Assembly (NCBI GenBank): GCA_965649765.1
Contig: OZ287753.1
Location: 17,732,001-17,796,000 of the forward strand
Source: Bispira polyomma
Lineage: Eukaryota
Reading direction: 5' to 3'
DNA length: 64,000 nt
The position numbers and the translations under genes were made by a program. Below, piece by piece: positions 25,740 to 60,985 of this stretch; the first letter of the stretch is position 1, and the number at the start of each line of letters is the position of its first letter. The notes beneath the pieces are model-generated. The model made no database searches. It had not been told where the DNA came from and saw only the letters and a program-made list of their open reading frames with translations.

Positions 25740-26082
25740 AAACAAACATGGGCCTTAAAACAAGGCTGATAAAAGTCGTCTGCTACAAACACACAGCTAG
25801 TGTTAACACTTCTCTCACAACCATTTGCAATAGTTCTCCATTGATTCTATGTGTCTCCTCTCTATGATACACAATATAGATGGCTCTGCCTTTATACAAA
25901 GTGTGTACTAGTACTAAGGAAGAAATAGAAATAAACTACCTGCCTTCAGATTTTTTCTTTCATACATACATCATGTACCATGATACACATCAAAACTCAC
26001 ACAGTGATTATCTCATTTATCATTCACAAACATTCTTAGAATGTTCTTAGTCTCAGGCAATCAGATTCTCTGAAACATATGT
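25740..26082 (+). repeat. 343-bp direct repeat X, left copy
   Basis: Matches 31384-31726 with one substitution seen (ctgcctTtatac vs ctgcctCtatac). Confidence 0.95.
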
Positions 26083-26196
26083 GATAGTCACTGCATTAAG
26101 CATGGCTTCTCAGTCGCAGAAATTTCATATATTACAGTAATGCTGATAAACAATTTGTTTACTGAGACAGCAGCCTATTAGAACACTTACTGATAG

Positions 26197-26311
26197 CCAA
26201 TAGCAGGCTGGTTCACTCAGGCATTTTGCCGCCCTTTCTATTGTGAGGGCATTGCAAAACTAGAAGTTGAATAAGCAACAACTAAAATTTTGAAAGAAAC
26301 GACGCCATCTT
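26197..26311 (+). promoter_or_regulatory. Putative E1 promoter: CCAAT, E2F-like and YY1-like motifs
   Basis: CCAAT 26197-26201, TTTGCCGC 26225-26232, CGCCATCTT 26303-26311. Same order in the E2 A repeat. Confidence 0.55.
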
Positions 26312-26479
26312 GTCAATAGATAAAAGTTGGCAAGATTCAGAAGAGTTTTACAAGTTTTAGTGTTTTATTAATTTACTTATACATCTTATACCATTTATTT
26401 TATACACAAGTGTTTATCATATACAAGGAGGGTGTTAAACGGATTATTACATTATTGTGAACAAATCCTACGACTCATC

Positions 26480-27931
26480 ATGGGCAGAGGTAAGAAGCGT
26501 CAACCTGCTACAAACATAGCTTCGTGTTCTCGATGTGACATCTCACATACCAGACCTGTTGGGAGCAGATGTAAACGTCAATTAGTGTCGGACGAAATAG
26601 GAGGCTTGCAGAGCGATTCCATAACTACACACGACCACGAAACTTCGATAAGCATGAGCGAATCTGGCACAGCCGTAAGTAGTGATTCTTTCTACCGGGA
26701 CGCGTTTCATGAACAACAGTCCATGATGAATAACATTTTAAAAACAGTGTCAAAATTACAAGAAGATATGTCCGCCCTGAAAGAAAATAAAACCCGCTTA
26801 CGTCCCATGAGTCCTGACAAAACTACAGCTGAATTAGATCAACAAGGTTCAGGTCCACTGATCCGACAGAAGTTTAATAGTCAGTGCAGAAGTAGCACAC
26901 AAGTGCGTACACAGCCTCAGGGTACACTTCGCAGAGATTCTCGTCTACCGATTCCAGATTTCTACAACGACGTACCTACACATTCACATAACCGTGCACA
27001 GAATACACCTCAGTCAGCAGCATTACTACCCACACCAAGCATCGTGTCTCAGGGGCAGAACCTATTCAATACGACGTCTCAGAGACTGCTTCCAAGTGAA
27101 CAAGTTCCACAACAAGCGGGTTGCACAGGTCTTCAGCCACATCACAACACGACTGCACACAATGCCTTCTCACAACAAGCGACAAACCACACACAAAGAG
27201 CAATGCAAGATTCGATCATCCCATCTACAGACGTACTTCGGCAGTCCTCGTTAATACAAAACGAAGTAAGCAGACGATTGGCCCAGTATGACAGTTGGTC
27301 AAGCAGCGACTACATTCAGGGTAAGTCAACTAAGAAAAAGTCGGGAAGGTACAACATTTCAGAAGTTTGCATATCCGACCCAATAGTACGTTGGCCAAAT
27401 GAGGGAAATTTAGCCGGGGTCTCAAAGAAACGTATCGCATATGATGAACTCACAGTAGCACAATTTGGCGCGGGTCAAATTCAGAACATTTTACAAGTTA
27501 AAAACCAGGTCATAGCGACAGCTATGCTAAAACAGCTAGGTGATTCATTAAGAGACAGTGCCAACCTATCCTGGCAAGTCGCGCGGGGCGCATACGCCTG
27601 TAGTATGCACGATGTGGAAGAGGGAAGGCTGTGTTGGACGGATGAACACAAATGGGCGATGAATCGCCTGTCCTACTCCCAAACGTTGATTTCAAATCCA
27701 TCCGGAGCATCAAATTCCACTAACGCGTCTGGTAACAAACCCGAGATTCCATGTCGACATTTTCAAAAGAACACTTGTCAACACAAAGGTGACCACGAGG
27801 GCCACTCAACCGTCTTCAAGCACATCTGTGCTAATTGTTTCCGCATTTCCAGACGACAGAATCCCCATCCGGAAACCAAGTGTTTCAAAATACATGGGAA
27901 ACCAGAGGTCAACACGACGCACACTCAATAG
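26480..27931 (+). CDS. gag: E1 ORF1, Gag-like protein
   Basis: First ATG at 26480 (the track start 26432 is GTG). N-terminal CxxC-x3-H-x7-C motif and C-terminal Cys/His cluster (CRHFQKNTC..H...HICANC..HPETKC) are conserved with E2 gag. Confidence 0.85.
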   Translation: MGRGKKRQPATNIASCSRCDISHTRPVGSRCKRQLVSDEIGGLQSDSITTHDHETSISMSESGTAVSSDSFYRDAFHEQQSMMNNILKTVSKLQEDMSALKENKTRLRPMSPDKTTAELDQQGSGPLIRQKFNSQCRSSTQVRTQPQGTLRRDSRLPIPDFYNDVPTHSHNRAQNTPQSAALLPTPSIVSQGQNLFNTTSQRLLPSEQVPQQAGCTGLQPHHNTTAHNAFSQQATNHTQRAMQDSIIPSTDVLRQSSLIQNEVSRRLAQYDSWSSSDYIQGKSTKKKSGRYNISEVCISDPIVRWPNEGNLAGVSKKRIAYDELTVAQFGAGQIQNILQVKNQVIATAMLKQLGDSLRDSANLSWQVARGAYACSMHDVEEGRLCWTDEHKWAMNRLSYSQTLISNPSGASNSTNASGNKPEIPCRHFQKNTCQHKGDHEGHSTVFKHICANCFRISRRQNPHPETKCFKIHGKPEVNTTHTQ

Positions 27932-30631
27932 GACGGGAAACCGCATACAGACACCACTGCTGCACGCATAACTCAAACATCTCGGAGAGGCACAGAATGT
28001 GACACAAGTATCCAGCATGATGACTTTGAGCATAAATATAAAATTGAAGGGAAAGACGTTGAGATATATTTTAATGAGTTAGGTAACAGTTCTATGGACA
28101 CTACTAGCTGTGTAATAACCAATAGTAAAACAAACGTTTTGCCAATTAACACAGTACAACAGACAGAATCTATATTTGATGATCATATGTTAAATCTAAA
28201 AGACGTTAAGTTAGTCATCAGTAATGTAAATCAACAAGTGACTAGTGGTAGTGATATGTGCAGTGACAATACTCGATCTGACTCTATGAACAATTGTAGT
28301 AGTAACTCCATGTCAAAAGTAGATAGGAGTAATGTTGATGTATATTTTAGTTCATATATATCCAGTTTGGATGGATATCACTTATGTTATATTGTATGTA
28401 ATGATAAGGGCCACATTTCCGGAGTGTACACCTGGACTAATGTGTGCGGTCGAGTGTCTCTACATAAATCTGACTACACTGTGGCTAATATATGGCCAGT
28501 AACATTTTACACAACAATGACAATAGATGTCATTGAGACAAAAGCCAAACACTTCACAAATGCAACACGTTTAAAACAACACACAAATAAACAGATTCGA
28601 CAGAGTATCACACACACACGAACAAAGACAAATAAGGCTCAATATTATTTGGACATTATTGATGAAATATCTAGAACAGTTCACCAAGGTACACAAACAC
28701 AAACAGAAGACAACATTGACACTCTACTAGTGAAACGAAAAAGTATAAAATCAGTAGACACAAATGAACATGTTGCCAATTTTGATGACATTGAGATACT
28801 ACAGAATTTGATTATAAATGACCACATTGATGCATTAGGTGACACTAATACAAAAAAAGAAAACAAATTGAAGACAAAAATGATGATGGACAACAGGACT
28901 TATGGTTTTATCACACACGAACAAGAAACTTTCAATTTTGTTGGACCAGAGAGACAGACAGTTGACATTGACTCATACGATAAGTTAATTAAGGTGGCTG
29001 AGATTATAAAACAAACAAACTTACCAAATTACAGAATGGCAAGAATACCAATTAAGAGTAATCTTAATGTGAGTAATTGGAAGAAATATCTAACCAATTA
29101 CCCAAATCAGAAATTACTTGAGTACATACAATTCGGATTTCCCATTTCTCTGTATGAGCGAGACAGACTGAATGTAAAAGATATCAAAAATCATTTCTCA
29201 GCCTTGACCTTCCCAAATGTGGTAGACAAGTATTTCACCACAGAAATAGAAAGAGGCACAATAATAGGACCAATAAATCAAACTCTTCACAAGGACACAC
29301 ATTGTTCTCCCCTTATGTCTAGGCCTAAAGACAATAATCAGCGCAGATTAATTCTTAACTTATCTCATCCTTTAGGCAGATCAGTAAATGATTGTACCGT
29401 AAAGGACAAATGCGACAACACCGACTTTGACTTAAAATTACCGACTATTGACCAAATTACCACTTACATTAAATTTTTAGGACCTAAGGCCACCTTAGCG
29501 AAATTGGACATAGCCCACGCATTTCGAAACTTACGTGTTGACCCTCTTGATTGTTTAAAACTAGGTTATGTTTGGAAAAATCAACACTTTATTGATCTAA
29601 GTCTTACTTTCGGACTCACCCATGGCACGTCTATCTTTATCATGGCATCAGACGCAATTACTTACATCATGAAAGAAAAAGGTTTTAAAGTATTTAACTA
29701 CATCGATGATTACATTATTGTAGAAAAAGAAGATAAGGCCACCTTAGCCTATGAAACTTTACAAAGTATTGTAACTGAACTTGGTTTACCCATCAATCCC
29801 AAGAAATTAGTTCCCCCTAGTAAAAAGGTCACATGTATGGGCATAACAATTGATATTGCACACGCAACTCTCAGTATTGACGAAGAAAAACTCAATTCAA
29901 TATATGACATTTGTGTCACATTCAGCTCATTAAGAAAAGTACCTAGAAATAAGTATCAATCATTATTGGGTAAACTCCTCTATATACAGAGGTGTGTGAA
30001 ACATTCACGCATATTTATGAATCGGATGCTTACAGTACTACGAAATTCCAAACATAGCAAATGGATAAACTTAACGGACGAGTTTCATAAGGACTTGAAT
30101 TGGTTCTTACGTTTCTTAAAAGAATTCAATGGTACTACAAAGTATAGCATTGAAAACCAACACTATGACATACTATTTCATGGTGACGCGTGTCTCTCCG
30201 GCATAGGTGGCGTGTGGGATAAGAAAGTTTTTCAAACAGTGTTACCAATGTTTTTAACAGAATCACTATCTATAGTACACTTTGAAATGATCTGCGTACT
30301 ATTAGCATTGAAATTATGGGGTAAACATTGGCAGAACAAACGAATTAAAATCAAATCAGATAACATGGCAGTGGTTTCTGTAGTGCGGTCGCTGAAAACT
30401 AAAGATAAATATTTAAGCTTATGTTTGAGAAACATTTGGCTACTCTGTGCAAAATACAATATAGACCTCTTAATAGAACACATACCAGGTAAAGACAACG
30501 TTATTGCAGACTGTTTATCTCGTTGGCATGAATTAGGACATTATGGACAAAAAATGAAGGACTTGATTAAGGAAAATTTTGAAATGTACAATATACCACT
30601 AGACATGTTCCTAATGGACACTTTAATTTGA
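27932..30631 (+). CDS. pol: E1 ORF2, reverse transcriptase plus RNase H (first ATG 28094; frame open from the gag stop)
   Basis: RT motifs KLDIAHAFRNL, LTFGL and YIDD. RNase H motifs DAC, E, KSDN and N.IAD.LSR. Same frame as gag, with no stop in 27932-28093. Confidence 0.93.
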   Translation, partial: DGKPHTDTTAARITQTSRRGTECDTSIQHDDFEHKYKIEGKDVEIYFNELGNSSMDTTSCVITNSKTNVLPINTVQQTESIFDDHMLNLKDVKLVISNVNQQVTSGSDMCSDNTRSDSMNNCSSNSMSKVDRSNVDVYFSSYISSLDGYHLCYIVCNDKGHISGVYTWTNVCGRVSLHKSDYTVANIWPVTFYTTMTIDVIETKAKHFTNATRLKQHTNKQIRQSITHTRTKTNKAQYYLDIIDEISRTVHQGTQTQTEDNIDTLLVKRKSIKSVDTNEHVANFDDIEILQNLIINDHIDALGDTNTKKENKLKTKMMMDNRTYGFITHEQETFNFVGPERQTVDIDSYDKLIKVAEIIKQTNLPNYRMARIPIKSNLNVSNWKKYLTNYPNQKLLEYIQFGFPISLYERDRLNVKDIKNHFSALTFPNVVDKYFTTEIERGTIIGPINQTLHKDTHCSPLMSRPKDNNQRRLILNLSHPLGRSVNDCTVKDKCDNTDFDLKLPTIDQITTYIKFLGPKATLAKLDIAHAFRNLRVDPLDCLKLGYVWKNQHFIDLSLTFGLTHGTSIFIMASDAITYIMKEKGFKVFNYIDDYIIVEKEDKATLAYETLQSIVTELGLPINPKKLVPPSKKVTCMGITIDIAHATLSIDEEKLNSIYDICVTFSSLRKVPRNKYQSLLGKLLYIQRCVKHSRIFMNRMLTVLRNSKHSKWINLTDEFHKDLNWFLRFLKEFNGTTKYSIENQHYDILFHGDACLSGIGGVWDKKVFQTVLPMFLTESLSIVHFEMICVLLALKLWGKHWQNKRIKIKSDNMAVVSVVRSLKTKDKYLSLCLRNIWLLCAKYNIDLLIEHIPGKDNVIADCLSRWHELGHYGQKMKDLIKENFEMYNIPLDMFLMDTLI

Positions 30632-30637
30632 TTTCAG

Positions 30638-31413
30638 GAATGACAGAAACAGCTAGACCTCTCTTGACAAGTGCAGTCCAGAGAATTAGACAGTGTCACA
30701 GACCCAGAACTACTAAACAATATAACAGCCAGTTTAGATTATTCCTGGCCTTCACAGTATACTACCAGCTGAATGAAACATTCAGCTTCAATACCATTAT
30801 TACATTCATGGAATATCTAGTACAATCTGGAGTTTCACCCAAAGTGATAAACAACTACTTGTCAGCTATACGTCATACTTGCAAATTTCTTAACATTACT
30901 GACAAGGGTCTTTATGATCAAAGATTACCACTGTTTCAAAGATCAGTCGAATTATCCTCAAGATTTTCTCCCAAGGTCAAAGGTGTCTTCGACCTTCACC
31001 AATTGATAGAAATTTCAAAAACATGTGAAATTCTTCATTGCCCTGAATTATTCAGAACAGCGTTTTTGGTTGCATATTTCGGATTCCTGCGAATCTCTAA
31101 TTTGACTACAACTTCCGGATACCGATTTGACCCAACTAGACACATTACCAGGGATGACTTGGTGTTTGCTCACCCTGGCATTCATTTGATTCTAAAGTGG
31201 TCGAAGACGAATCAGACCAGATCACATACAGACATAATTCAACTCCCTGCTCTTAGCAACCCTTGGCTTTGTCCACTCACTGCTGTGAAGAAATTATTTC
31301 AAAAATTTCCAATGTCAGGGAAAGCACCATTATTAGCTGATCCTTCAGACAAAGATAAATGCCTTTCAGATACAAAGCTCAACAAACAAACATGGGCCTT
31401 AAAACAAGGCTGA
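30638..31413 (+). pseudogene. E1 tyrosine recombinase, C-terminally truncated
   Basis: GFLRISN (R) and KWSKT (K) are present. The ORF runs into repeat X at 31384 before the HxxR, H/W and Y catalytic residues seen in E2. Confidence 0.85.
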
Positions 31414-31726
31414 TAAAAGTCGTCTGCTACAAACACACAGCTAGTGTTAACACTTCTCTCACAACCATTTGCAATAGTTCTCCATTGATTCTATGTGTCT
31501 CCTCTCTATGATACACAATATAGATGGCTCTGCCTCTATACAAAGTGTGTACTAGTACTAAGGAAGAAATAGAAATAAACTACCTGCCTTCAGATTTTTT
31601 CTTTCATACATACATCATGTACCATGATACACATCAAAACTCACACAGTGATTATCTCATTTATCATTCACAAACATTCTTAGAATGTTCTTAGTCTCAG
31701 GCAATCAGATTCTCTGAAACATATGT
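31384..31726 (+). repeat. 343-bp direct repeat X, right copy
   Basis: Offset of 5644 bp from the left copy. Confidence 0.95.
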
Positions 31727-53793: not shown

Positions 53794-54346
53794 CAGTGCC
53801 CTACCCTAGTAAACTTGTAGATGTGGTGTAACACAGGAAAATAACAAGAAAGGTAGGTTTTGGGGATATTAGCTTTAATTTGACTATGTTATCACTAATA
53901 ATTATTTACATACTGTGTAGTAAGGGGCCACCTTAGCCCCAAGAGTTTAGGAGAAGTTAAGAGTTTAAGGTGACCTTAACCTGAGGACAACAGGCCAAAG
54001 TGACCAAAGGGATTTTTAAAATTTAAGGGGTAGCCCTAGCTTGAAAGTTAGGGCTACCTAAGATTGAGTTTAAGGTTAAGGGTAGCCCTAACTTGGAAGT
54101 TAGGGTTACCAAAGATTGAAATTTTAAGGTTGAATTTAGGGGTAACCCTAACTTGAAGTTAGGGTAACCTTAGAATGAGTTTAAGTTTAAGAAAAATGGT
54201 AACCTTAGATTTTATTTGAGGTTGCCAAACGAGATTTAGTAAAGATGTAAAATGATTAAATTAGTATAAGGTAAGGTGGCCCCAAAATATTTATATTTAA
54301 GCATTATTATATTTTATTTGTATATAATGTATGTAAATAAAGCCCC
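53794..54346 (-). repeat. E2 repeat B2 (553 bp)
   Basis: Matches 55448-56000 with two substitutions seen. Confidence 0.95.
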
Positions 54347-55251
54347 CAAAAAGGGTAAAATTGAAATTAAAAAACCATGGTACTAGCTAAGAAACTAAAA
54401 CCTGTGCTGCTCACTAATAAAGTCCATAAGAGGAGCAAAAACTCACTAAACCTTAAACCCCTAGCATATACAATTACCATGGCTTACAGAGAACATGCAT
54501 ACAGACATAAGCAAAATATAAATCGAGTAGCTCTTGTCTTCCAGGAGGGCAGTGCTTGCTTGTATAGAGTTCATTCCTGACTGAGCCACAAGAGATCCAT
54601 GAATCCAGTGTGCCTGAAACTACATGCTTACAGTTGAACATGTGATCACAAAGTTACCAAATGCACTTGCACACAACATGATGTGCAATGCATTATAACG
54701 TTATACTAGCGACAACACGAGGTTGCGAAATACAAACATTTTACAAATCCAGTCCTCGTTGTGACGAGGAACAACATTAATAGTTATACTTTACATGCTA
54801 CTATGACAACAAAAAGGATGCGACTTCACATACTGTACACATATAAAATCGTGCTGCCTGACGCAGGACATTTGACAACATTATCAATTTGATATACAAC
54901 AAAGGGAAGACCCTGAAAACAATAAAGTAACATACATTGATAACTACAAAAGGAGACGCAACCTCAGCAGCAAGCAGCTACCTAAAATTAAGTGTTGGCC
55001 CCTAAGGGCCCTGGTGTTACCCAGAAAAGTATGGGAGATAAGTCACCTGAGGCCCCAGAAGGCCCCCAAGGGCGGGGAACTGTGAAGGCCAGCAGTAATG
55101 CATAACTCGTGGGCCCACAGCCCCGAGCCCCCACCCCCCTGCGCCAAGGTGTAAAGTGAGACTTCAGGAACCCCAGGGACTGCATGCCGCACTCCAGGGA
55201 CGGACGCATAGCTGAAAACTACAGAGGAAGTAGTAGGGGCAAGTGGGTGGG

Positions 55252-55451
55252 TAATGTAAAATATTAAAGATGGCGTTGTTGCCCAAATGACTTCAATAGT
55301 ATAAGTGAGGATTCTAGCTAAAAAGCGGGAAAACAGAGGTTAATTAGTACACAAGTGACCAATTAGGAAGGGGTTCATAGGGCATGAACCCAGGGTAGAA
55401 AATACTAGTAGCACTGAACTTGCTATCCCCTACGGCGCTACCCCGCACAGT
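55252..55451 (-). repeat. E2 repeat A2 (200 bp)
   Basis: No mismatch seen against 60786-60985. Confidence 0.95.
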
Positions 55452-56000
55452 GCCCTACCCTAGTAAACTTGTAGATGTGGTGTAATACAGGAAAATAACA
55501 AGAAAGGTAGGTTTTGGGGATATTAGCTTTAATTTGACTATGTTATCACTAATAATTATTTACATACTGTGTAGTAAGGGGCCACCTTAGCCCCAAGAGT
55601 TTAGGAGAAGTTAAGAGTTTAAGGTGACCTTAACCTGAGGACAACAGGCCAAAGTGACCAAAGGGATTTTTAAAATTTAAGGGGTAGCCCTAGCTTGAAA
55701 GTTAGGGCTACCTAAGATTGAGTTTAAGGTTAAGGGTAGCCCTAACTTGGAAGTTAGGGTTACCAAAGATTGAAATTTTAAGGTTGAATTTAGGGGTAAC
55801 CCTAACTTGAAGTTAGGGTAACCTTAGAATGAGTTTAAGTTTAAGAAAAATGGTAACCTTAGATTTTATTTGAGGTTGCCAAAAGAGATTTAGTAAAGAT
55901 GTAAAATGATTAAATTAGTATAAGGTAAGGTGGCCCCAAAATATTTATATTTAAGCATTATTATATTTTATTTGTATATAATGTATGTAAATAAAGCCCC
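55448..56000 (-). repeat. E2 repeat B1 (553 bp)
   Basis: Begins about 10 nt after the YR stop and overlaps A2 by the CAGT core. Confidence 0.95.
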
Positions 56001-56009
56001 AAAGCCCAA

Positions 56010-57056
56010 CTAGGAAGTAGTGGAAGGGGAAAGGAGGGCCTTGAAGGTGAGGGCGACTTGGTCAGATGCATTGTGATCCTGTACAATATATTTCCACACA
56101 CAATCAGACGTCCAAGTGCCATGGCTCTGGATATCTTGAATTGGGACATTATTGTTGAAGGCCAAGGTGGCACCTGAACGCCTGAAGGTGTGGAAAGAAA
56201 TGTTTGATTGCTGGAGGCCAAGACGCCTCAAAATTTGAGTGAGATTTTGTCTAGCTTGGGTGTCAATCATTGGGGCCCATTTATGGTCTTTTTTAAACTG
56301 AAAGAGAGGAGAATTTTTGTGTCCAGGAGTAATAGCTAGTAAGGCCCTTGTGGCAGCCACCGGACAAAGACTAGAGCCACTTAGGCTCGGTATTTTAATA
56401 ACTTTTGCTACATTCTTTGACTGCATTGTTTTAGACCACTTTATTATGAGGTGGAGGCCAGGGGAGGCAAAAAGTACGTCCCCCCGGGACAGTTGGACTA
56501 GTGAAGAGAATTGAGAGACAGCATGTGGAAGTAAGTTCGATATTCTAAGAAAAGAAAAGAAAGCAATGAGGTACAGAGCCTTGAAGACCTGCCCCATGTA
56601 CATGCTGTCACAAATTTGAGTAATTTGGAGTAACAGGGGAATGTCAATAATAGCGTTAATTTTAGCGATGAAGGGGCTATTGAGTGTGAGGGCTTTTTGG
56701 TAATACTTAATTCTAGGATCTGCAAATGCAGAGACGTCAAGGCCATAGAGGGCCAATTTAGCCTTAACCGCCGAGAGGTAGTTTGCAATGGAGGAGGAAG
56801 AGACATGATTAACCACTAATACTTCTAAGAAAGCCAATACAATGAGGGGGGAGATATTTTGAGGCCTGACCTGAGCAAAACTACAATAGGCCAAGAATAT
56901 CCTAAACATATTTGTATAGGCCCTTTCAGTGGCTGGTCTAAAGGCCTGATGGGCTCTGTATGAGGCTTGTGTAGCAATCTTTCTTAGCTTGGAAGGTACA
57001 TCTGCAATTAGATAGACCAATCTATTTCTAACATTGTGTCTTTTACTTTTACCCAT
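56010..57056 (-). CDS. E2 tyrosine recombinase, intact; probably entered by splicing at 57001
   Basis: Full catalytic set: FLRISN (R), KWSKT (K), FHTFRRSGA (HxxR), HGTW and KYI (Y). Confidence 0.93.
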   Translation of the reverse strand: MGKSKRHNVRNRLVYLIADVPSKLRKIATQASYRAHQAFRPATERAYTNMFRIFLAYCSFAQVRPQNISPLIVLAFLEVLVVNHVSSSSIANYLSAVKAKLALYGLDVSAFADPRIKYYQKALTLNSPFIAKINAIIDIPLLLQITQICDSMYMGQVFKALYLIAFFSFLRISNLLPHAVSQFSSLVQLSRGDVLFASPGLHLIIKWSKTMQSKNVAKVIKIPSLSGSSLCPVAATRALLAITPGHKNSPLFQFKKDHKWAPMIDTQARQNLTQILRRLGLQQSNISFHTFRRSGATLAFNNNVPIQDIQSHGTWTSDCVWKYIVQDHNASDQVALTFKALLSPSTTS

Positions 57057-59488
57057 TTGGGATTCGATACCAGTTCTAGTAACTTGTCATTATTGCTGGC
57101 CGTGATCTGCCACCTAGAGAGGAGATCAGCCACTGTATTAAGTCTACCTAAAATGTGAATGGTTTTGAGACTGATATCATGGGAGGCTACGGTCATGAAG
57201 ATGTTTCTGGCAATAGCTGCCAAAGTGAGGTCTTTAGTTTTGCCTGAATTGAGGATAGTGACCACGGCAGCATTGTCGCATTGCAATATTAACCTCTTAC
57301 CTGCCCACGCTGACTTCCATAGCCTAATGGCAACTAAGATGTTTAACATCTCCAGATGAACTATCGTGAAATCTAGATAACCTAGAGGAATTTGGAATTG
57401 GTATACCTCATCATTACAACGGCCTCCCAGACCTTGGAGGCACGCATCCAACTGAATACAATCGGTAGTGGGTTTGTGTTCAAAGAAGGCTTTTCCATTA
57501 AATGTTGGTAAAAATTTTTTAAACCAATTTACATCCTGATGAAACTCAGGTGTAAGTTTTACTTTTTGATCCGGGCCTACAGATCTTAGGACGTCAAGCA
57601 TTCGGTTTAAGAAAGCACGTGAAACTCGAACACATTTGGATACATATAACAATTTACCTAGCAGTGACTGCAACTCCCTCTTACTGCAGTAGTTTCTTAA
57701 TTGCCAGTCTTGCACAAGTGTGTTTATTTCTAGTAGCTTTTCATCTGGCAATGAGATTGTCAAGTCATTTGTATTAACTAACACCCCCAGACACGTTACT
57801 GACGTGCTGGGGTGAACAAGTTTTTTGTGACTAATCGCAAAGCCTAGTTCCTGGAGTAAGTTGAGCAATATATCAAATGAATGTTTACTTTCTATGACGT
57901 CACCATAGCCGATTACGTCGTCGATATAGTTGGTGACGTCATGTCCGTGACGTTTCATGATGTACCTGACGGCGTCACTTAATCGCTGAAAAATGGCGCT
58001 CCCGTGCCGAAAACCAAATGGGAGGCAAGAGTCGACGTAGTATTTGTCTAATTTTAAGCCTAATAGATTGTAATCGGCTGGATCCATTTTTACGTGACGA
58101 AATGCCCGACTTACGTCAATTTTATATAAGAGCGTTCCACGTCCCATACGACATATTTTGTTTGTGATTGTGTCAATTGTAGGAAGGGTTAATGCAAACG
58201 CAGTACCGAGATACTTATCCTTGACTACAGCCGAATTCACAGAGTTGCCATGAGGAAAGCTTAAATCTATGATAACGCGCCTGTGTGCGGCACCTGGCTT
58301 TTCCCTAGTCATAAAGGGAGAAATATGGAGGTTTTGTATGGGGGCCTTATGGAAAGGGCCCAACATGGCGCCTAACTCAGTCTCTTCTTTTAAATAAGCA
58401 TGCACATCATCTGGAAATTGTGTTGCAGATGAATGATTCTGTTCTGTATGAGATAACTTGCTGTCAGGATTAAAATCGAGGGGAAACCCATATCTTATCA
58501 AAAAGGGAAGTTGTTTATCCCAGTAGTCAGTCAAGTATTTTTCCCATACATCTGGGTTCAACTCAGATTTCAATTGAACTTGTGCCCCCATATAATTTGG
58601 GTAGTTGTCCTGCTTAATCTGAGTGTGTAACTCTAACAGAGACTTATCCGACTTTACTCGTTTATCCGTTTGGGGAACTTGGAGGTCATTTAGCGGAATA
58701 AACCCATACTTATCTGTAGTTTGAGTATCCCATTGCTGGAACTGAGGCTGGTTGCAAGCACGTTTTATAAGTTCCTTGTTTTTCGATTTAGTTTGTAGTT
58801 CTAGGTCATATTTGTCTGATTTTATTCCCCCAATACCTCGAGAGAGTATTTTAAGACCTTGACCTTGGTTACAAGTATCTGGTAAATGTGTGACAGAGTT
58901 GTCACTAGTGTCCATATAATGGTCATTGTCACTCAAAGGGGAAAACCTATTGTGAGTGGAAATGGGCCATTTGCCCTGAATGTCTAATTTTGTGCTTTCC
59001 AGCTTTTGGCCAAATTGATCACCTTTTGTTGGAGGGGGTTTACCCATTTCTGACATTACATTATTCCTCTGTGCACTTGTAAAAGGGAAAGCTCCTTTTG
59101 TGAAAGCTTTAACACTCACTCTGTGCCCCAGTTCATGTTTTGTGGACACTTCTGACATTTGGTTATTATTTAAACATGGTGAACATTTAACATGGTGACT
59201 TTGACACCTCTGATTCACATTTGCACTTTGTACAGAAACCTTTATGGCAGCAGACCTGGAGGGAGCCTTTCTTTTAACCACATCAGCATAAGATCTATTT
59301 ACAAATTTGGCCCAATCTGCCCTCCAATGTGTACTGCCAGTATTACATTTAAGACTATTAAACATAGTTCTAGTGGGAAAACCTTTAGAATTATTTACAA
59401 CTTTTTGTGCAAGTTTTTTACTGACCACCTCTTGTGTGGAAGAAACATAGGCTGGCACTGCATTACGGCAGTGCCTTACTCGTTTTTT
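57008..59488 (-). CDS. pol: E2 ORF2, reverse transcriptase plus RNase H, in the -1 frame from gag
   Basis: KIDVSRAFRH, LPFGF and YIDD (RT); DAC, E, QCDN and N.VAD.LSR (RNase H). The track start 59458 is GTG, and the frame is open back through the slippery site. Confidence 0.93.
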   Translation of the reverse strand, partial: KKRVRHCRNAVPAYVSSTQEVVSKKLAQKVVNNSKGFPTRTMFNSLKCNTGSTHWRADWAKFVNRSYADVVKRKAPSRSAAIKVSVQSANVNQRCQSHHVKCSPCLNNNQMSEVSTKHELGHRVSVKAFTKGAFPFTSAQRNNVMSEMGKPPPTKGDQFGQKLESTKLDIQGKWPISTHNRFSPLSDNDHYMDTSDNSVTHLPDTCNQGQGLKILSRGIGGIKSDKYDLELQTKSKNKELIKRACNQPQFQQWDTQTTDKYGFIPLNDLQVPQTDKRVKSDKSLLELHTQIKQDNYPNYMGAQVQLKSELNPDVWEKYLTDYWDKQLPFLIRYGFPLDFNPDSKLSHTEQNHSSATQFPDDVHAYLKEETELGAMLGPFHKAPIQNLHISPFMTREKPGAAHRRVIIDLSFPHGNSVNSAVVKDKYLGTAFALTLPTIDTITNKICRMGRGTLLYKIDVSRAFRHVKMDPADYNLLGLKLDKYYVDSCLPFGFRHGSAIFQRLSDAVRYIMKRHGHDVTNYIDDVIGYGDVIESKHSFDILLNLLQELGFAISHKKLVHPSTSVTCLGVLVNTNDLTISLPDEKLLEINTLVQDWQLRNYCSKRELQSLLGKLLYVSKCVRVSRAFLNRMLDVLRSVGPDQKVKLTPEFHQDVNWFKKFLPTFNGKAFFEHKPTTDCIQLDACLQGLGGRCNDEVYQFQIPLGYLDFTIVHLEMLNILVAIRLWKSAWAGKRLILQCDNAAVVTILNSGKTKDLTLAAIARNIFMTVASHDISLKTIHILGRLNTVADLLSRWQITASNNDKLLELVSNPKWVKVKDTMLEIDWSI
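59454..59488 (-). promoter_or_regulatory. Putative -1 programmed ribosomal frameshift signal
   Basis: A_AAA_AAC (59488-59482) in the gag frame, 6-nt spacer GAGTAA, perfect hairpin GGCACTGC-CGTAAT-GCAGTGCC (59475-59454). Confidence 0.8.
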
Positions 59489-60450
59489 AACGGATATTTT
59501 TTACAGTCTTTTGCAGGGTGGGGGTAATACCTCCCATTTTGAAAGCATTGGTTACACACGTGACTATATGACACACCTTTGAATTCGTGATCCCCTTTTT
59601 GGGGGCAAGTACCCTTTTGGAAGTACCTACATGGGATGGACTTCTCATGACTTTTCCTGGTGTTGGTTTGATGATTACTATTTGCAGTCTGGATGACAAC
59701 CCTTTGGGCATGAGCCCGTCTAATCCTGTCCAACTTGTGGGCATCTCCCCAGGTTACCTTACCCTCTTCCATTTTACACAGTACAACGGCATGGCTAGCC
59801 TTAGCCGAGGTCCAGGAAAAGTCATGAGCGTCCTCCATGAGGTCAGTGAGATAGTCCAACATTTGGTTCTTAACGTCTAAACTACTTTCATCTCTAGCTA
59901 TACTGGCAAAACCAGAGACCCACTGGGCCATTGACAACGCGTCATACGTAACTCGTGTTTTGTTTTGTCCCCCTAGTATAACGTTCTGAAGCCAAGCCAC
60001 CTTATTCTTCACCCACAGAGTGTCGGGACCCCCTCTTTGAGATTTTGACGTACCTGATTCATTAATGGCCACCAATTCCTTAAGACGTGAATCCACTGCA
60101 GTCTGTAGGGAGTCGGATGAACGTAGTGTCTGTAGCGTCGGAACCAGTAGCTCAGAAGTGGTTAGCTCCGCCTGTCTAGGTTGGGCTGCACTCCCCGGGC
60201 TCGACGCCGGCAAAGCCTGGGCTCCATGTGAACTGCGATAAACTTGCTGCTCAACTTGGGTCATACGCCCACTTAATGCTTTGAGTTCAGTCAAAATTTG
60301 TAGGTTAACGTCGGCAGCAGTTACACCATCGCTAGCCACAGAGTTCTGCTTGGAAGTTCCCACACCGGTATATAATTTACAGTTTTCATCAATGGGTTTA
60401 ATATGACTAGTTTCACACTTGTGACAGTAGTATTGTTTCCTCGGGGCCAT
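59476..60450 (-). CDS. gag: E2 ORF1, Gag-like protein (324 aa)
   Basis: N-terminal CHKC-ETS-H-x7-C, a coiled-coil-like segment, and C-terminal CRYFQKGTC..H...HVCNQC..HPAKDC. Confidence 0.88.
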   Translation of the reverse strand: MAPRKQYYCHKCETSHIKPIDENCKLYTGVGTSKQNSVASDGVTAADVNLQILTELKALSGRMTQVEQQVYRSSHGAQALPASSPGSAAQPRQAELTTSELLVPTLQTLRSSDSLQTAVDSRLKELVAINESGTSKSQRGGPDTLWVKNKVAWLQNVILGGQNKTRVTYDALSMAQWVSGFASIARDESSLDVKNQMLDYLTDLMEDAHDFSWTSAKASHAVVLCKMEEGKVTWGDAHKLDRIRRAHAQRVVIQTANSNHQTNTRKSHEKSIPCRYFQKGTCPQKGDHEFKGVSYSHVCNQCFQNGRYYPHPAKDCKKYPLKNE

Positions 60451-60785: not shown

Positions 60786-60985
60786 TAATGTAAAATATTA
60801 AAGATGGCGTTGTTGCCCAAATGACTTCAATAGTATAAGTGAGGATTCTAGCTAAAAAGCGGGAAAACAGAGGTTAATTAGTACACAAGTGACCAATTAG
60901 GAAGGGGTTCATAGGGCATGAACCCAGGGTAGAAAATACTAGTAGCACTGAACTTGCTATCCCCTACGGCGCTACCCCGCACAGT
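60786..60985 (-). repeat. E2 repeat A1 (200 bp), contains the putative promoter
   Basis: CCAAT 60893-60897, TTTCCCGC 60866-60859 and CGCCATCTT 60809-60801. Hairpin GGGTTCAT-AGGGC-ATGAACCC. Confidence 0.95.

What the first reader, a model, noticed from the sequence alone, without database searches (positions are those of the whole stretch)
59454..59488. Classic -1 ribosomal frameshift cassette joining gag to pol in E2
Seen: gag ends TTA AAA AAC GAG TAA. The heptamer A_AAA_AAC is in the X_XXY_YYZ register, followed after 6 nt by a perfect 8-bp GC-rich hairpin. The -1 frame (AAA AAA CGA GTA AGG CAC TGC CGT AAT GCA GTG CCA...) runs directly into the RT ORF, which has no ATG at its start. Established: A_AAA_AAC plus a downstream structure drives the gag-pro frameshift in MMTV and HTLV. 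Inference: RT is made as a minor Gag-Pol fusion.
Basis: partly seen in the sequence, partly recalled or inferred. Interest (0 to 1): 0.8.

Follow-up and report, generated by a model that had tools for sequence, protein, structure and literature searches.

The report
Conserved frameshift signal in Ngaro retrotransposons
A large group of jumping genes in this genome keeps a slippery run of A's and a small hairpin exactly where the capsid-like gene ends, which likely makes some ribosomes slip back one base and continue into the reverse transcriptase, while the element's recombinase is likely made by splicing instead.

Summary
The cassette is real (minus strand): A_AAA_AAC in register, a 6-nt spacer holding the gag stop, and an 8-bp hairpin. 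The element is not an LTR element or retrovirus but a 7.19-kb Ngaro-type tyrosine-recombinase retrotransposon with split direct repeats. Of 30 related families sampled in this genome (gag core 41-100% identical), 24 keep the in-register heptamer at the gag end. 19 of them share the hairpin core, with one stem pair swapped G-C/C-G. A conserved Pol N-terminal motif lies upstream of the first AUG in several families, and one family's first AUG is inside the conserved RT-side block, so Pol is unlikely to start at its own AUG. A -1 ribosomal frameshift to a Gag-Pol fusion is the best reading (about 0.9); it has not been measured. The recombinase likely comes from a conserved splice, not the frameshift a review proposed. 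Ten literature searches found no description of this gag-pol signal; two key papers were not readable. The scan earlier noted splicing in other YR elements and guessed frameshifting in one fungal Ngaro, but had no sequence match to this one.

The parts
59482..59488 (-). Slippery heptamer A_AAA_AAC, in register with gag codons (K-N)
   Evidence: in register at the gag end in 24 of 30 families
59476..59481 (-). 6-nt spacer containing the gag stop codon
   Evidence: the stem core starts 8 nt after the heptamer in 19 of 19 aligned families
59454..59475 (-). 8-bp hairpin with 6-nt loop, predicted frameshift stimulator
59476..60450 (-). gag-like ORF, 324 aa from ATG 60450, with a conserved C-terminal Cys/His cluster; no Pfam hit, so 'gag' rests on position
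57008..59500 (-). RT/RNase H ORF in the -1 frame; first AUG at 59365; no methyltransferase or integrase hit
56010..57001 (-). Tyrosine recombinase coding region from the likely splice acceptor (open frame begins 57086)
60046..60059 (-). Likely phase-1 splice donor inside gag (last exon base 60054)
   Evidence: GGT in 19 of 20 families with Gly at this column; phase
57002..57021 (-). Likely phase-1 splice acceptor just after the pol stop
   Evidence: same position and phase in 22 of 25 families, T-rich
60786..60985 (-). Repeat A1 (5' end of the element)
   Evidence: 100% identical to A2 over 200 nt
55448..56003 (-). Repeat B1
   Evidence: 99.5% identical to B2 over 556 nt
55252..55451 (-). Repeat A2
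54350..55251 (-). About 0.9-kb spacer between A2 and B2, with no ORF of 100 codons or more; part of the element
   Evidence: present in 3 of 4 fetched sister copies; ORFs
53794..54349 (-). Repeat B2 (3' end of the element)

Best explanation
The element carries a conserved A_AAA_AAC heptamer and hairpin at the end of gag that likely cause programmed -1 ribosomal frameshifting, so that a fraction of ribosomes would skip the gag stop and make a Gag-RT/RNase H fusion. Shown: the anatomy, the -1 register, conservation across families, and coding constraint on the -1 frame upstream of its first AUG. Inferred: ribosomes with Lys and Asn tRNAs pause at the hairpin 6-8 nt downstream, re-pair one base back and read K-K-R/L...H-C..AV into Pol, while most stop 0-1 codons later and release Gag. 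The third protein, the recombinase, is likely made from a spliced RNA joining a donor in gag to an acceptor just past the pol stop.
For: (1) 24 of 30 families have the in-register heptamer 0-21 nt before the gag stop. Counting the one family with G_AAA_AAC, all 25 with a K-N ending use AAA AAC and 24 have the preceding A, against about 0.06 per family from gag codon usage; other conserved Lys and Asn columns in gag use both codons. (2) Mean folding energy of 36-nt windows is -14 to -15 kcal/mol at offsets -6 to +6 from the heptamer end and -2 to -6 elsewhere within 150 nt; z <= -2 in 20 of 24 families. (3) One stem pair is G-C in 10 and C-G in 9 of 19 families, never broken; four distant families keep the heptamer with other downstream sequences. 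(4) Of 108 distinct copies with an RT hit, 53 are open from heptamer to RT in the -1 frame, 0 in the 0 frame, 2 in +1 (one-base deletions), 40 are decayed and 13 lack an in-register heptamer. The -1 frame closes a median of 4-7 codons upstream of the heptamer. (5) A conserved Pol N-terminal motif lies before the first AUG in several families; in one family the six copies open to the locus end have their first AUG at codon 284-382. (6) Of 1,188 genome-wide cassette matches (0 for the reversed control), 6 have a -1-frame stop in the loop, all one sequence, against 120 and 391 stop-like triplets in the other two frames; 30 of 30 fetched matches lie at a gag end. (7) 86 of 96 gag relatives from other assemblies that reach the Cys/His cluster end in, or read through, K-N. 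(8) A_AAA_AAC is among the most shift-prone heptamers (PMC5009743, passages) and is the MMTV and HTLV gag-pro site (PMC3835772, passages).
Against: No frameshift was measured; no RNA run was listed. Six core pairs never vary, so they say nothing about pairing, and the compensatory swap is only about two independent events on the tree. Three of the four distant families have weak hairpin scores (z -0.7 to -1.4). The stem's 3' arm contains an invariant CAG in the same phase as the gag splice donor. The loop-stop contrast is partly confounded by the frequent A-U pair closing the loop and by family relatedness. Among 30 close copies the cassette is no less variable than its flanks (16 deviations in 35 columns vs 185 in 466). 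DNA junctions were examined in one genome only.
Confidence: 0.9

Rival explanations
1. Pol is made from a spliced RNA: the donor in gag joins the invariant CAG in the hairpin's 3' arm, which is in the right phase for the Pol frame, and the hairpin tunes how often this happens.
For: Donor and stem CAG are both phase 1; the stem core is invariant in sequence; earlier scan notes describe splice-based Pol expression in other YR elements (unchecked notes).
Against: The stem CAG has 2.6 T in the 14 nt upstream against 7.5 for the recombinase acceptors of the same elements (the latter picked as the most T-rich candidate). It is buried in a stable stem and often preceded by an out-of-phase CAG. Two families have no phase-1 YAG within about 60 nt of the heptamer. 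Splicing explains neither the fixed heptamer nor the lack of -1-frame stops in the loop, which would be intron.
Confidence: 0.05
2. Pol starts at its own AUG (59365 in this copy) by re-initiation or leaky scanning, and the heptamer and hairpin serve something else, such as packaging.
For: An in-frame AUG lies 110 nt after the gag stop; two families have an AUG overlapping the gag stop.
Against: First-AUG position ranges from codon 4 to 382 and is not conserved; in this copy it falls inside the conserved motif at a column where others have V, I or F. In 18 families 1,499 codons between heptamer and first AUG are stop-free (best copy per family). One family would lose part of the conserved block.
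Confidence: 0.03
3. RNA polymerase slips on the A run and adds a base, putting Pol in frame without ribosomal frameshifting.
For: A-run insertions do give in-frame Gag-Pol in three individual copies, in runs just upstream of the heptamer.
Against: The run is six A's ending in a fixed C and sits in codon register; a hairpin 3' of the slip site is not yet transcribed when the polymerase passes the run (established reasoning, not tested).
Confidence: 0.02

Closest known systems
Deltaretrovirus (HTLV, BLV) gag-pro -1 frameshift signal
   Same: A_AAA_AAC, 6-7-nt spacer, structure generally taken to be a simple stem-loop (PMC3835772, passages and table rows seen).
   Different: Here it joins gag directly to RT/RNase H in a non-viral YR retrotransposon; there is no protease ORF and no second frameshift.
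MMTV gag-pro frameshift signal
   Same: Same heptamer, 7-nt spacer (PMC3835772).
   Different: MMTV uses a pseudoknot (PMC5009743, passages); no conserved loop-to-downstream pairing was found here.
-1 gag-pol frameshifting in animal LTR retrotransposons
   Same: [quoted passage not shown]
   Different: Those are integrase-bearing LTR elements; the held part of that review (first 300,000 of 449,034 characters) never mentions DIRS.
Ngaro retrotransposons (order DIRS)
   Same: A1-[gag, RT/RH, YR]-B1 A2 B2 split direct repeats, no methyltransferase (PMC8547959 section 11; PMC3266345 and PMC7192593 passages).
   Different: A 0.6-0.9-kb spacer separates A2 from B2. Poulter and Butler 2015 (seen only as a quotation in PMC13003380) proposed frameshifting for the recombinase ORF; here the recombinase junction looks spliced and the defined frameshift signal is at gag-pol.

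Membership tests
Programmed -1 ribosomal frameshift signal | X_XXY_YYZ heptamer in register with the upstream frame | tested here: met
Programmed -1 ribosomal frameshift signal | Stable RNA structure about 5-9 nt downstream | tested here: met
   predicted only; weak in 4 of 24 families
Programmed -1 ribosomal frameshift signal | Downstream ORF open in the -1 frame from the slip site and without its own conserved start | tested here: met
Programmed -1 ribosomal frameshift signal | Signal conserved beyond protein constraint | tested here: met
Programmed -1 ribosomal frameshift signal | Measured -1 product dependent on heptamer and structure | not testable with these tools
   needs a reporter, ribosome profiling or mass spectrometry
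MMTV-type pseudoknot stimulator | Loop pairs with a downstream segment (stem 2) | tested here: not met
   best loop helix 4.9 bp vs 4.6 for shuffles over 19 families, 70 nt searched; long-range partners not searched
Ngaro retrotransposon | Split direct repeats A1-ORFs-B1 A2 B2 | tested here: met
   with a spacer between A2 and B2
Ngaro retrotransposon | ORF order gag, RT/RNase H, tyrosine recombinase | tested here: met
   (RVT_1 3e-11; Phage_integrase 3e-5, below Pfam's cut-off; His-x-x-Arg motif visible)
Ngaro retrotransposon | No methyltransferase domain (unlike DIRS and PAT) | tested here: met
   no hit in this pol or 4 relatives; pol ends 33 aa after the RNase H-like hit
Ngaro retrotransposon | RT/RH groups with reference Ngaro elements in a tree | not tested
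   no named reference came back
LTR retrotransposon or retrovirus | Terminal LTR pair and DDE integrase | tested here: not met

The most novel reading that the evidence does not exclude
A whole clade of Ngaro-type retrotransposons runs a retrovirus-like three-way expression programme from one transcript: Gag by normal termination, Gag-Pol by a defined -1 frameshift cassette, and a half-Gag-recombinase fusion by one conserved splice, and neither signal has been described for tyrosine-recombinase retrotransposons.
Probability: 0.55. Interest if true: 0.65.

Novelty: new variant of a known kind. Interest (0 to 1): 0.5.

Why it matters
How tyrosine-recombinase retrotransposons express their downstream ORFs has been left to a guess in the papers I could see. 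This gives a concrete signal of about 35 nt that a reporter can test, in over a thousand natural variants in one genome, and points to a Gag-Pol fusion in elements reported to lack a protease. It also moves the proposed frameshift from the recombinase junction to the gag-pol junction for this clade. The mechanism itself is textbook, which caps the surprise.

Tried and rejected
A second frameshift into the recombinase: this copy has the -1 overlap, but across 53 loci the recombinase frame is -1, 0 and +1 in 18, 17 and 18, so rejected. Close copies were too alike to test conservation. No RNA holder was listed; three contig runs of unknown kind from one study showed no intron-like joint among the 15 of 41 joints displayed, which is no evidence either way. 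A search for longer, fused Gag relatives gave one hit among 8,000 scored candidates, weak either way. Pseudoknot test negative. Literature: searches found no gag-pol frameshift signal for YR elements. Poulter and Butler 2015, Goodwin and Poulter 2004 and the 2003 recoding survey were not held and may already suggest it. No supplements were read; they and Repbase annotations could bear on novelty.

Full report
Observation. On the minus strand the gag-like ORF (ATG 60450, 324 aa) ends CCG TTA AAA AAC GAG TAA. The heptamer 59488-59482 is in X_XXY_YYZ register, followed by a 6-nt spacer that holds the stop and an 8-bp stem with a 6-nt loop. The hairpin folds at -15.5 kcal/mol, z = -2.7 over 42 nt and weaker over longer windows. 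The -1 frame opens four codons upstream and runs 830 codons through RT and RNase H; its first AUG is at 59365. A heptamer with a hairpin is not rare enough to stand alone: 2 of 40 such heptamers in the window have one.

The element. It spans 60985-53794 with repeats A1, B1, A2 and B2 and ORFs gag, RT/RNase H, tyrosine recombinase. Three of four fetched sister copies match over 7.19 kb at 99.3-99.6%, so the family is young. No integrase or methyltransferase was detected. This fits the Ngaro definition (PMC8547959 section 11; PMC3266345 and PMC7192593 passages). No tree against named references was possible.

Conservation. Thirty close copies (96-100%) keep heptamer and stem arms in 28 of 30 each, but the cassette is as variable as its flanks there, so they prove little. 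I therefore sampled diverged families through Gag protein searches of the genome, choosing 60 further places by hand from the hit lists. The 150 loci fall into 30 families at under 85% nucleotide identity. In 24 the in-register A_AAA_AAC lies 0-21 nt before the gag stop. The six misses are single places: one with G_AAA_AAC and a near-identical hairpin, one with the cassette out of register by a base, four with a replaced or rearranged junction. All 25 families with a K-N ending use AAA AAC, 24 with the preceding A; gag codon usage predicts about 0.06 per family, and other conserved Lys and Asn columns use both codons (22 families; these were selected for the heptamer, so only the other columns are a fair control). 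Among 120 listed Gag relatives from other assemblies (38-58% identical), 74 end in K-N or K-N-x, 12 read through K-N into hairpin-like residues, 10 end otherwise and 24 lack the Cys/His motif.

Structure. Folding energy is lowest exactly behind the heptamer, and z <= -2 in 20 of 24 families. Nineteen families share a 6-bp core that never varies; the next pair is G-C in 10 and C-G in 9. On a Gag tree of 41 rows this is one swap between two clades plus one change to U-A, so about two independent events. Four distant families have other downstream sequences, three with weak scores, and one has a deletion. No conserved pseudoknot was found. The cassette pattern occurs 1,188 times in the genome against 0 for its reversed control, and 30 of 30 fetched matches lie at a gag end.

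How ribosomes enter Pol. Of 108 distinct copies with an RT hit, 53 are open from heptamer to RT in the -1 frame, none in the 0 frame, 2 in +1 through one-base deletions, 40 are decayed and 13 lack an in-register heptamer; 16 of 25 families have at least one open copy. Upstream the -1 frame closes within 1-49 codons, median 4-7, which confines entry to the heptamer region. The first AUG sits anywhere from codon 4 to 382, and a conserved N-terminal motif precedes it in several families. In one family the six copies open to the locus end have their first AUG at codon 284-382, in one copy at a conserved RT methionine. Separate initiation is therefore unlikely.

The splicing rival. Prompted by an earlier scan note, I examined the recombinase junction. 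Its frame relative to pol is -1, 0 and +1 in 18, 17 and 18 of 53 loci; a T-rich phase-1 YAG sits at the same position in 22 of 25 families, and gag holds a matching donor (GGT in 19 of 20). The recombinase is thus likely spliced. Since the stem's invariant CAG is also phase 1, Pol could in principle be spliced too, as notes on other genomes suggest (unchecked). Against that: 2.6 vs 7.5 T in the 14 nt upstream, burial in the stem, two families without a phase-1 YAG near the junction, and near absence of -1-frame stops in the loop (6 of 1,188, one sequence) against 120 and 391 stop-like triplets, TGG included, in the other frames. The last contrast is partly confounded by the A-U closing pair and by relatedness.

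Comparison and novelty. The heptamer is among the most shift-prone (PMC5009743, passages) and is used with a 6-7-nt spacer by MMTV, with a pseudoknot, and by HTLV and BLV, with stem-loops (PMC3835772, passages). Passages of PMC3783388, PMC6681497, PMC3266345, PMC7192593, PMC9210276, PMC2632668, PMC12440569 and PMC8226300 describe overlapping ORFs or classification but no slippery site; PMC3783388 notes that YR elements lack a protease. PMC13003380 (section 17) quotes Poulter and Butler 2015 as guessing frameshifting for the recombinase ORF. That review and Goodwin and Poulter 2004 could not be read, so the idea of frameshifting in Ngaro is in print and the gag-pol case may be too; a defined, conserved signal was not found in ten searches. 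The scan holds no note on a similar sequence or in this genome.

Verdict. It is a known mechanism in a group where I found it undescribed, paired with a likely splice for the recombinase. Interest 0.5.

Noticed in passing
window 60054 and 57001 (minus): Matching phase-1 donor in gag and T-rich acceptor after the pol stop, conserved across families; would give a fusion of about 132 Gag residues with the recombinase. No RNA evidence.
   Followed up: partly
window 54350-55251; L224, L225: A spacer of 0.6-0.9 kb between A2 and B2 recurs in two other families; not part of the standard Ngaro scheme and unexplained.
   Followed up: partly
window about 58965-58935 (minus, -1 frame): A short N-[RK]-[FY]-x-x-L motif in the otherwise variable Pol leader in 15 of 18 families and 40 of 81 long outside relatives; recalls, from memory only, ribosome-binding motifs of SERBP1/Stm1.
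   Followed up: partly
window about 59375-59280 (minus, -1 frame): Conserved Pol N-terminal motif (R-x-x-Y/F-N-S ... W-x-x-D-W ... S-Y-x-x-V) of unknown function.
   Followed up: partly
L220: A sister copy has A1, the ORFs and a single B repeat, as if B1 and B2 had recombined.
   Followed up: no
L113, L123, L124: Copies in which a one-base change upstream of the heptamer puts gag in frame with pol; P0187 from another assembly shows a similar fusion.
   Followed up: partly
cassette loop, alignment A2: The inner four loop bases form a GNRA tetraloop in 7 of 19 families.
   Followed up: no
window about 60470-60450 (minus): A T-rich CAG just upstream of the gag ATG could be a 5' UTR splice acceptor.
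   Followed up: no
window 25740-31683: A second element bounded by a direct repeat of at least 300 nt, 100% identical, 5,644 nt apart; not examined.
   Followed up: no
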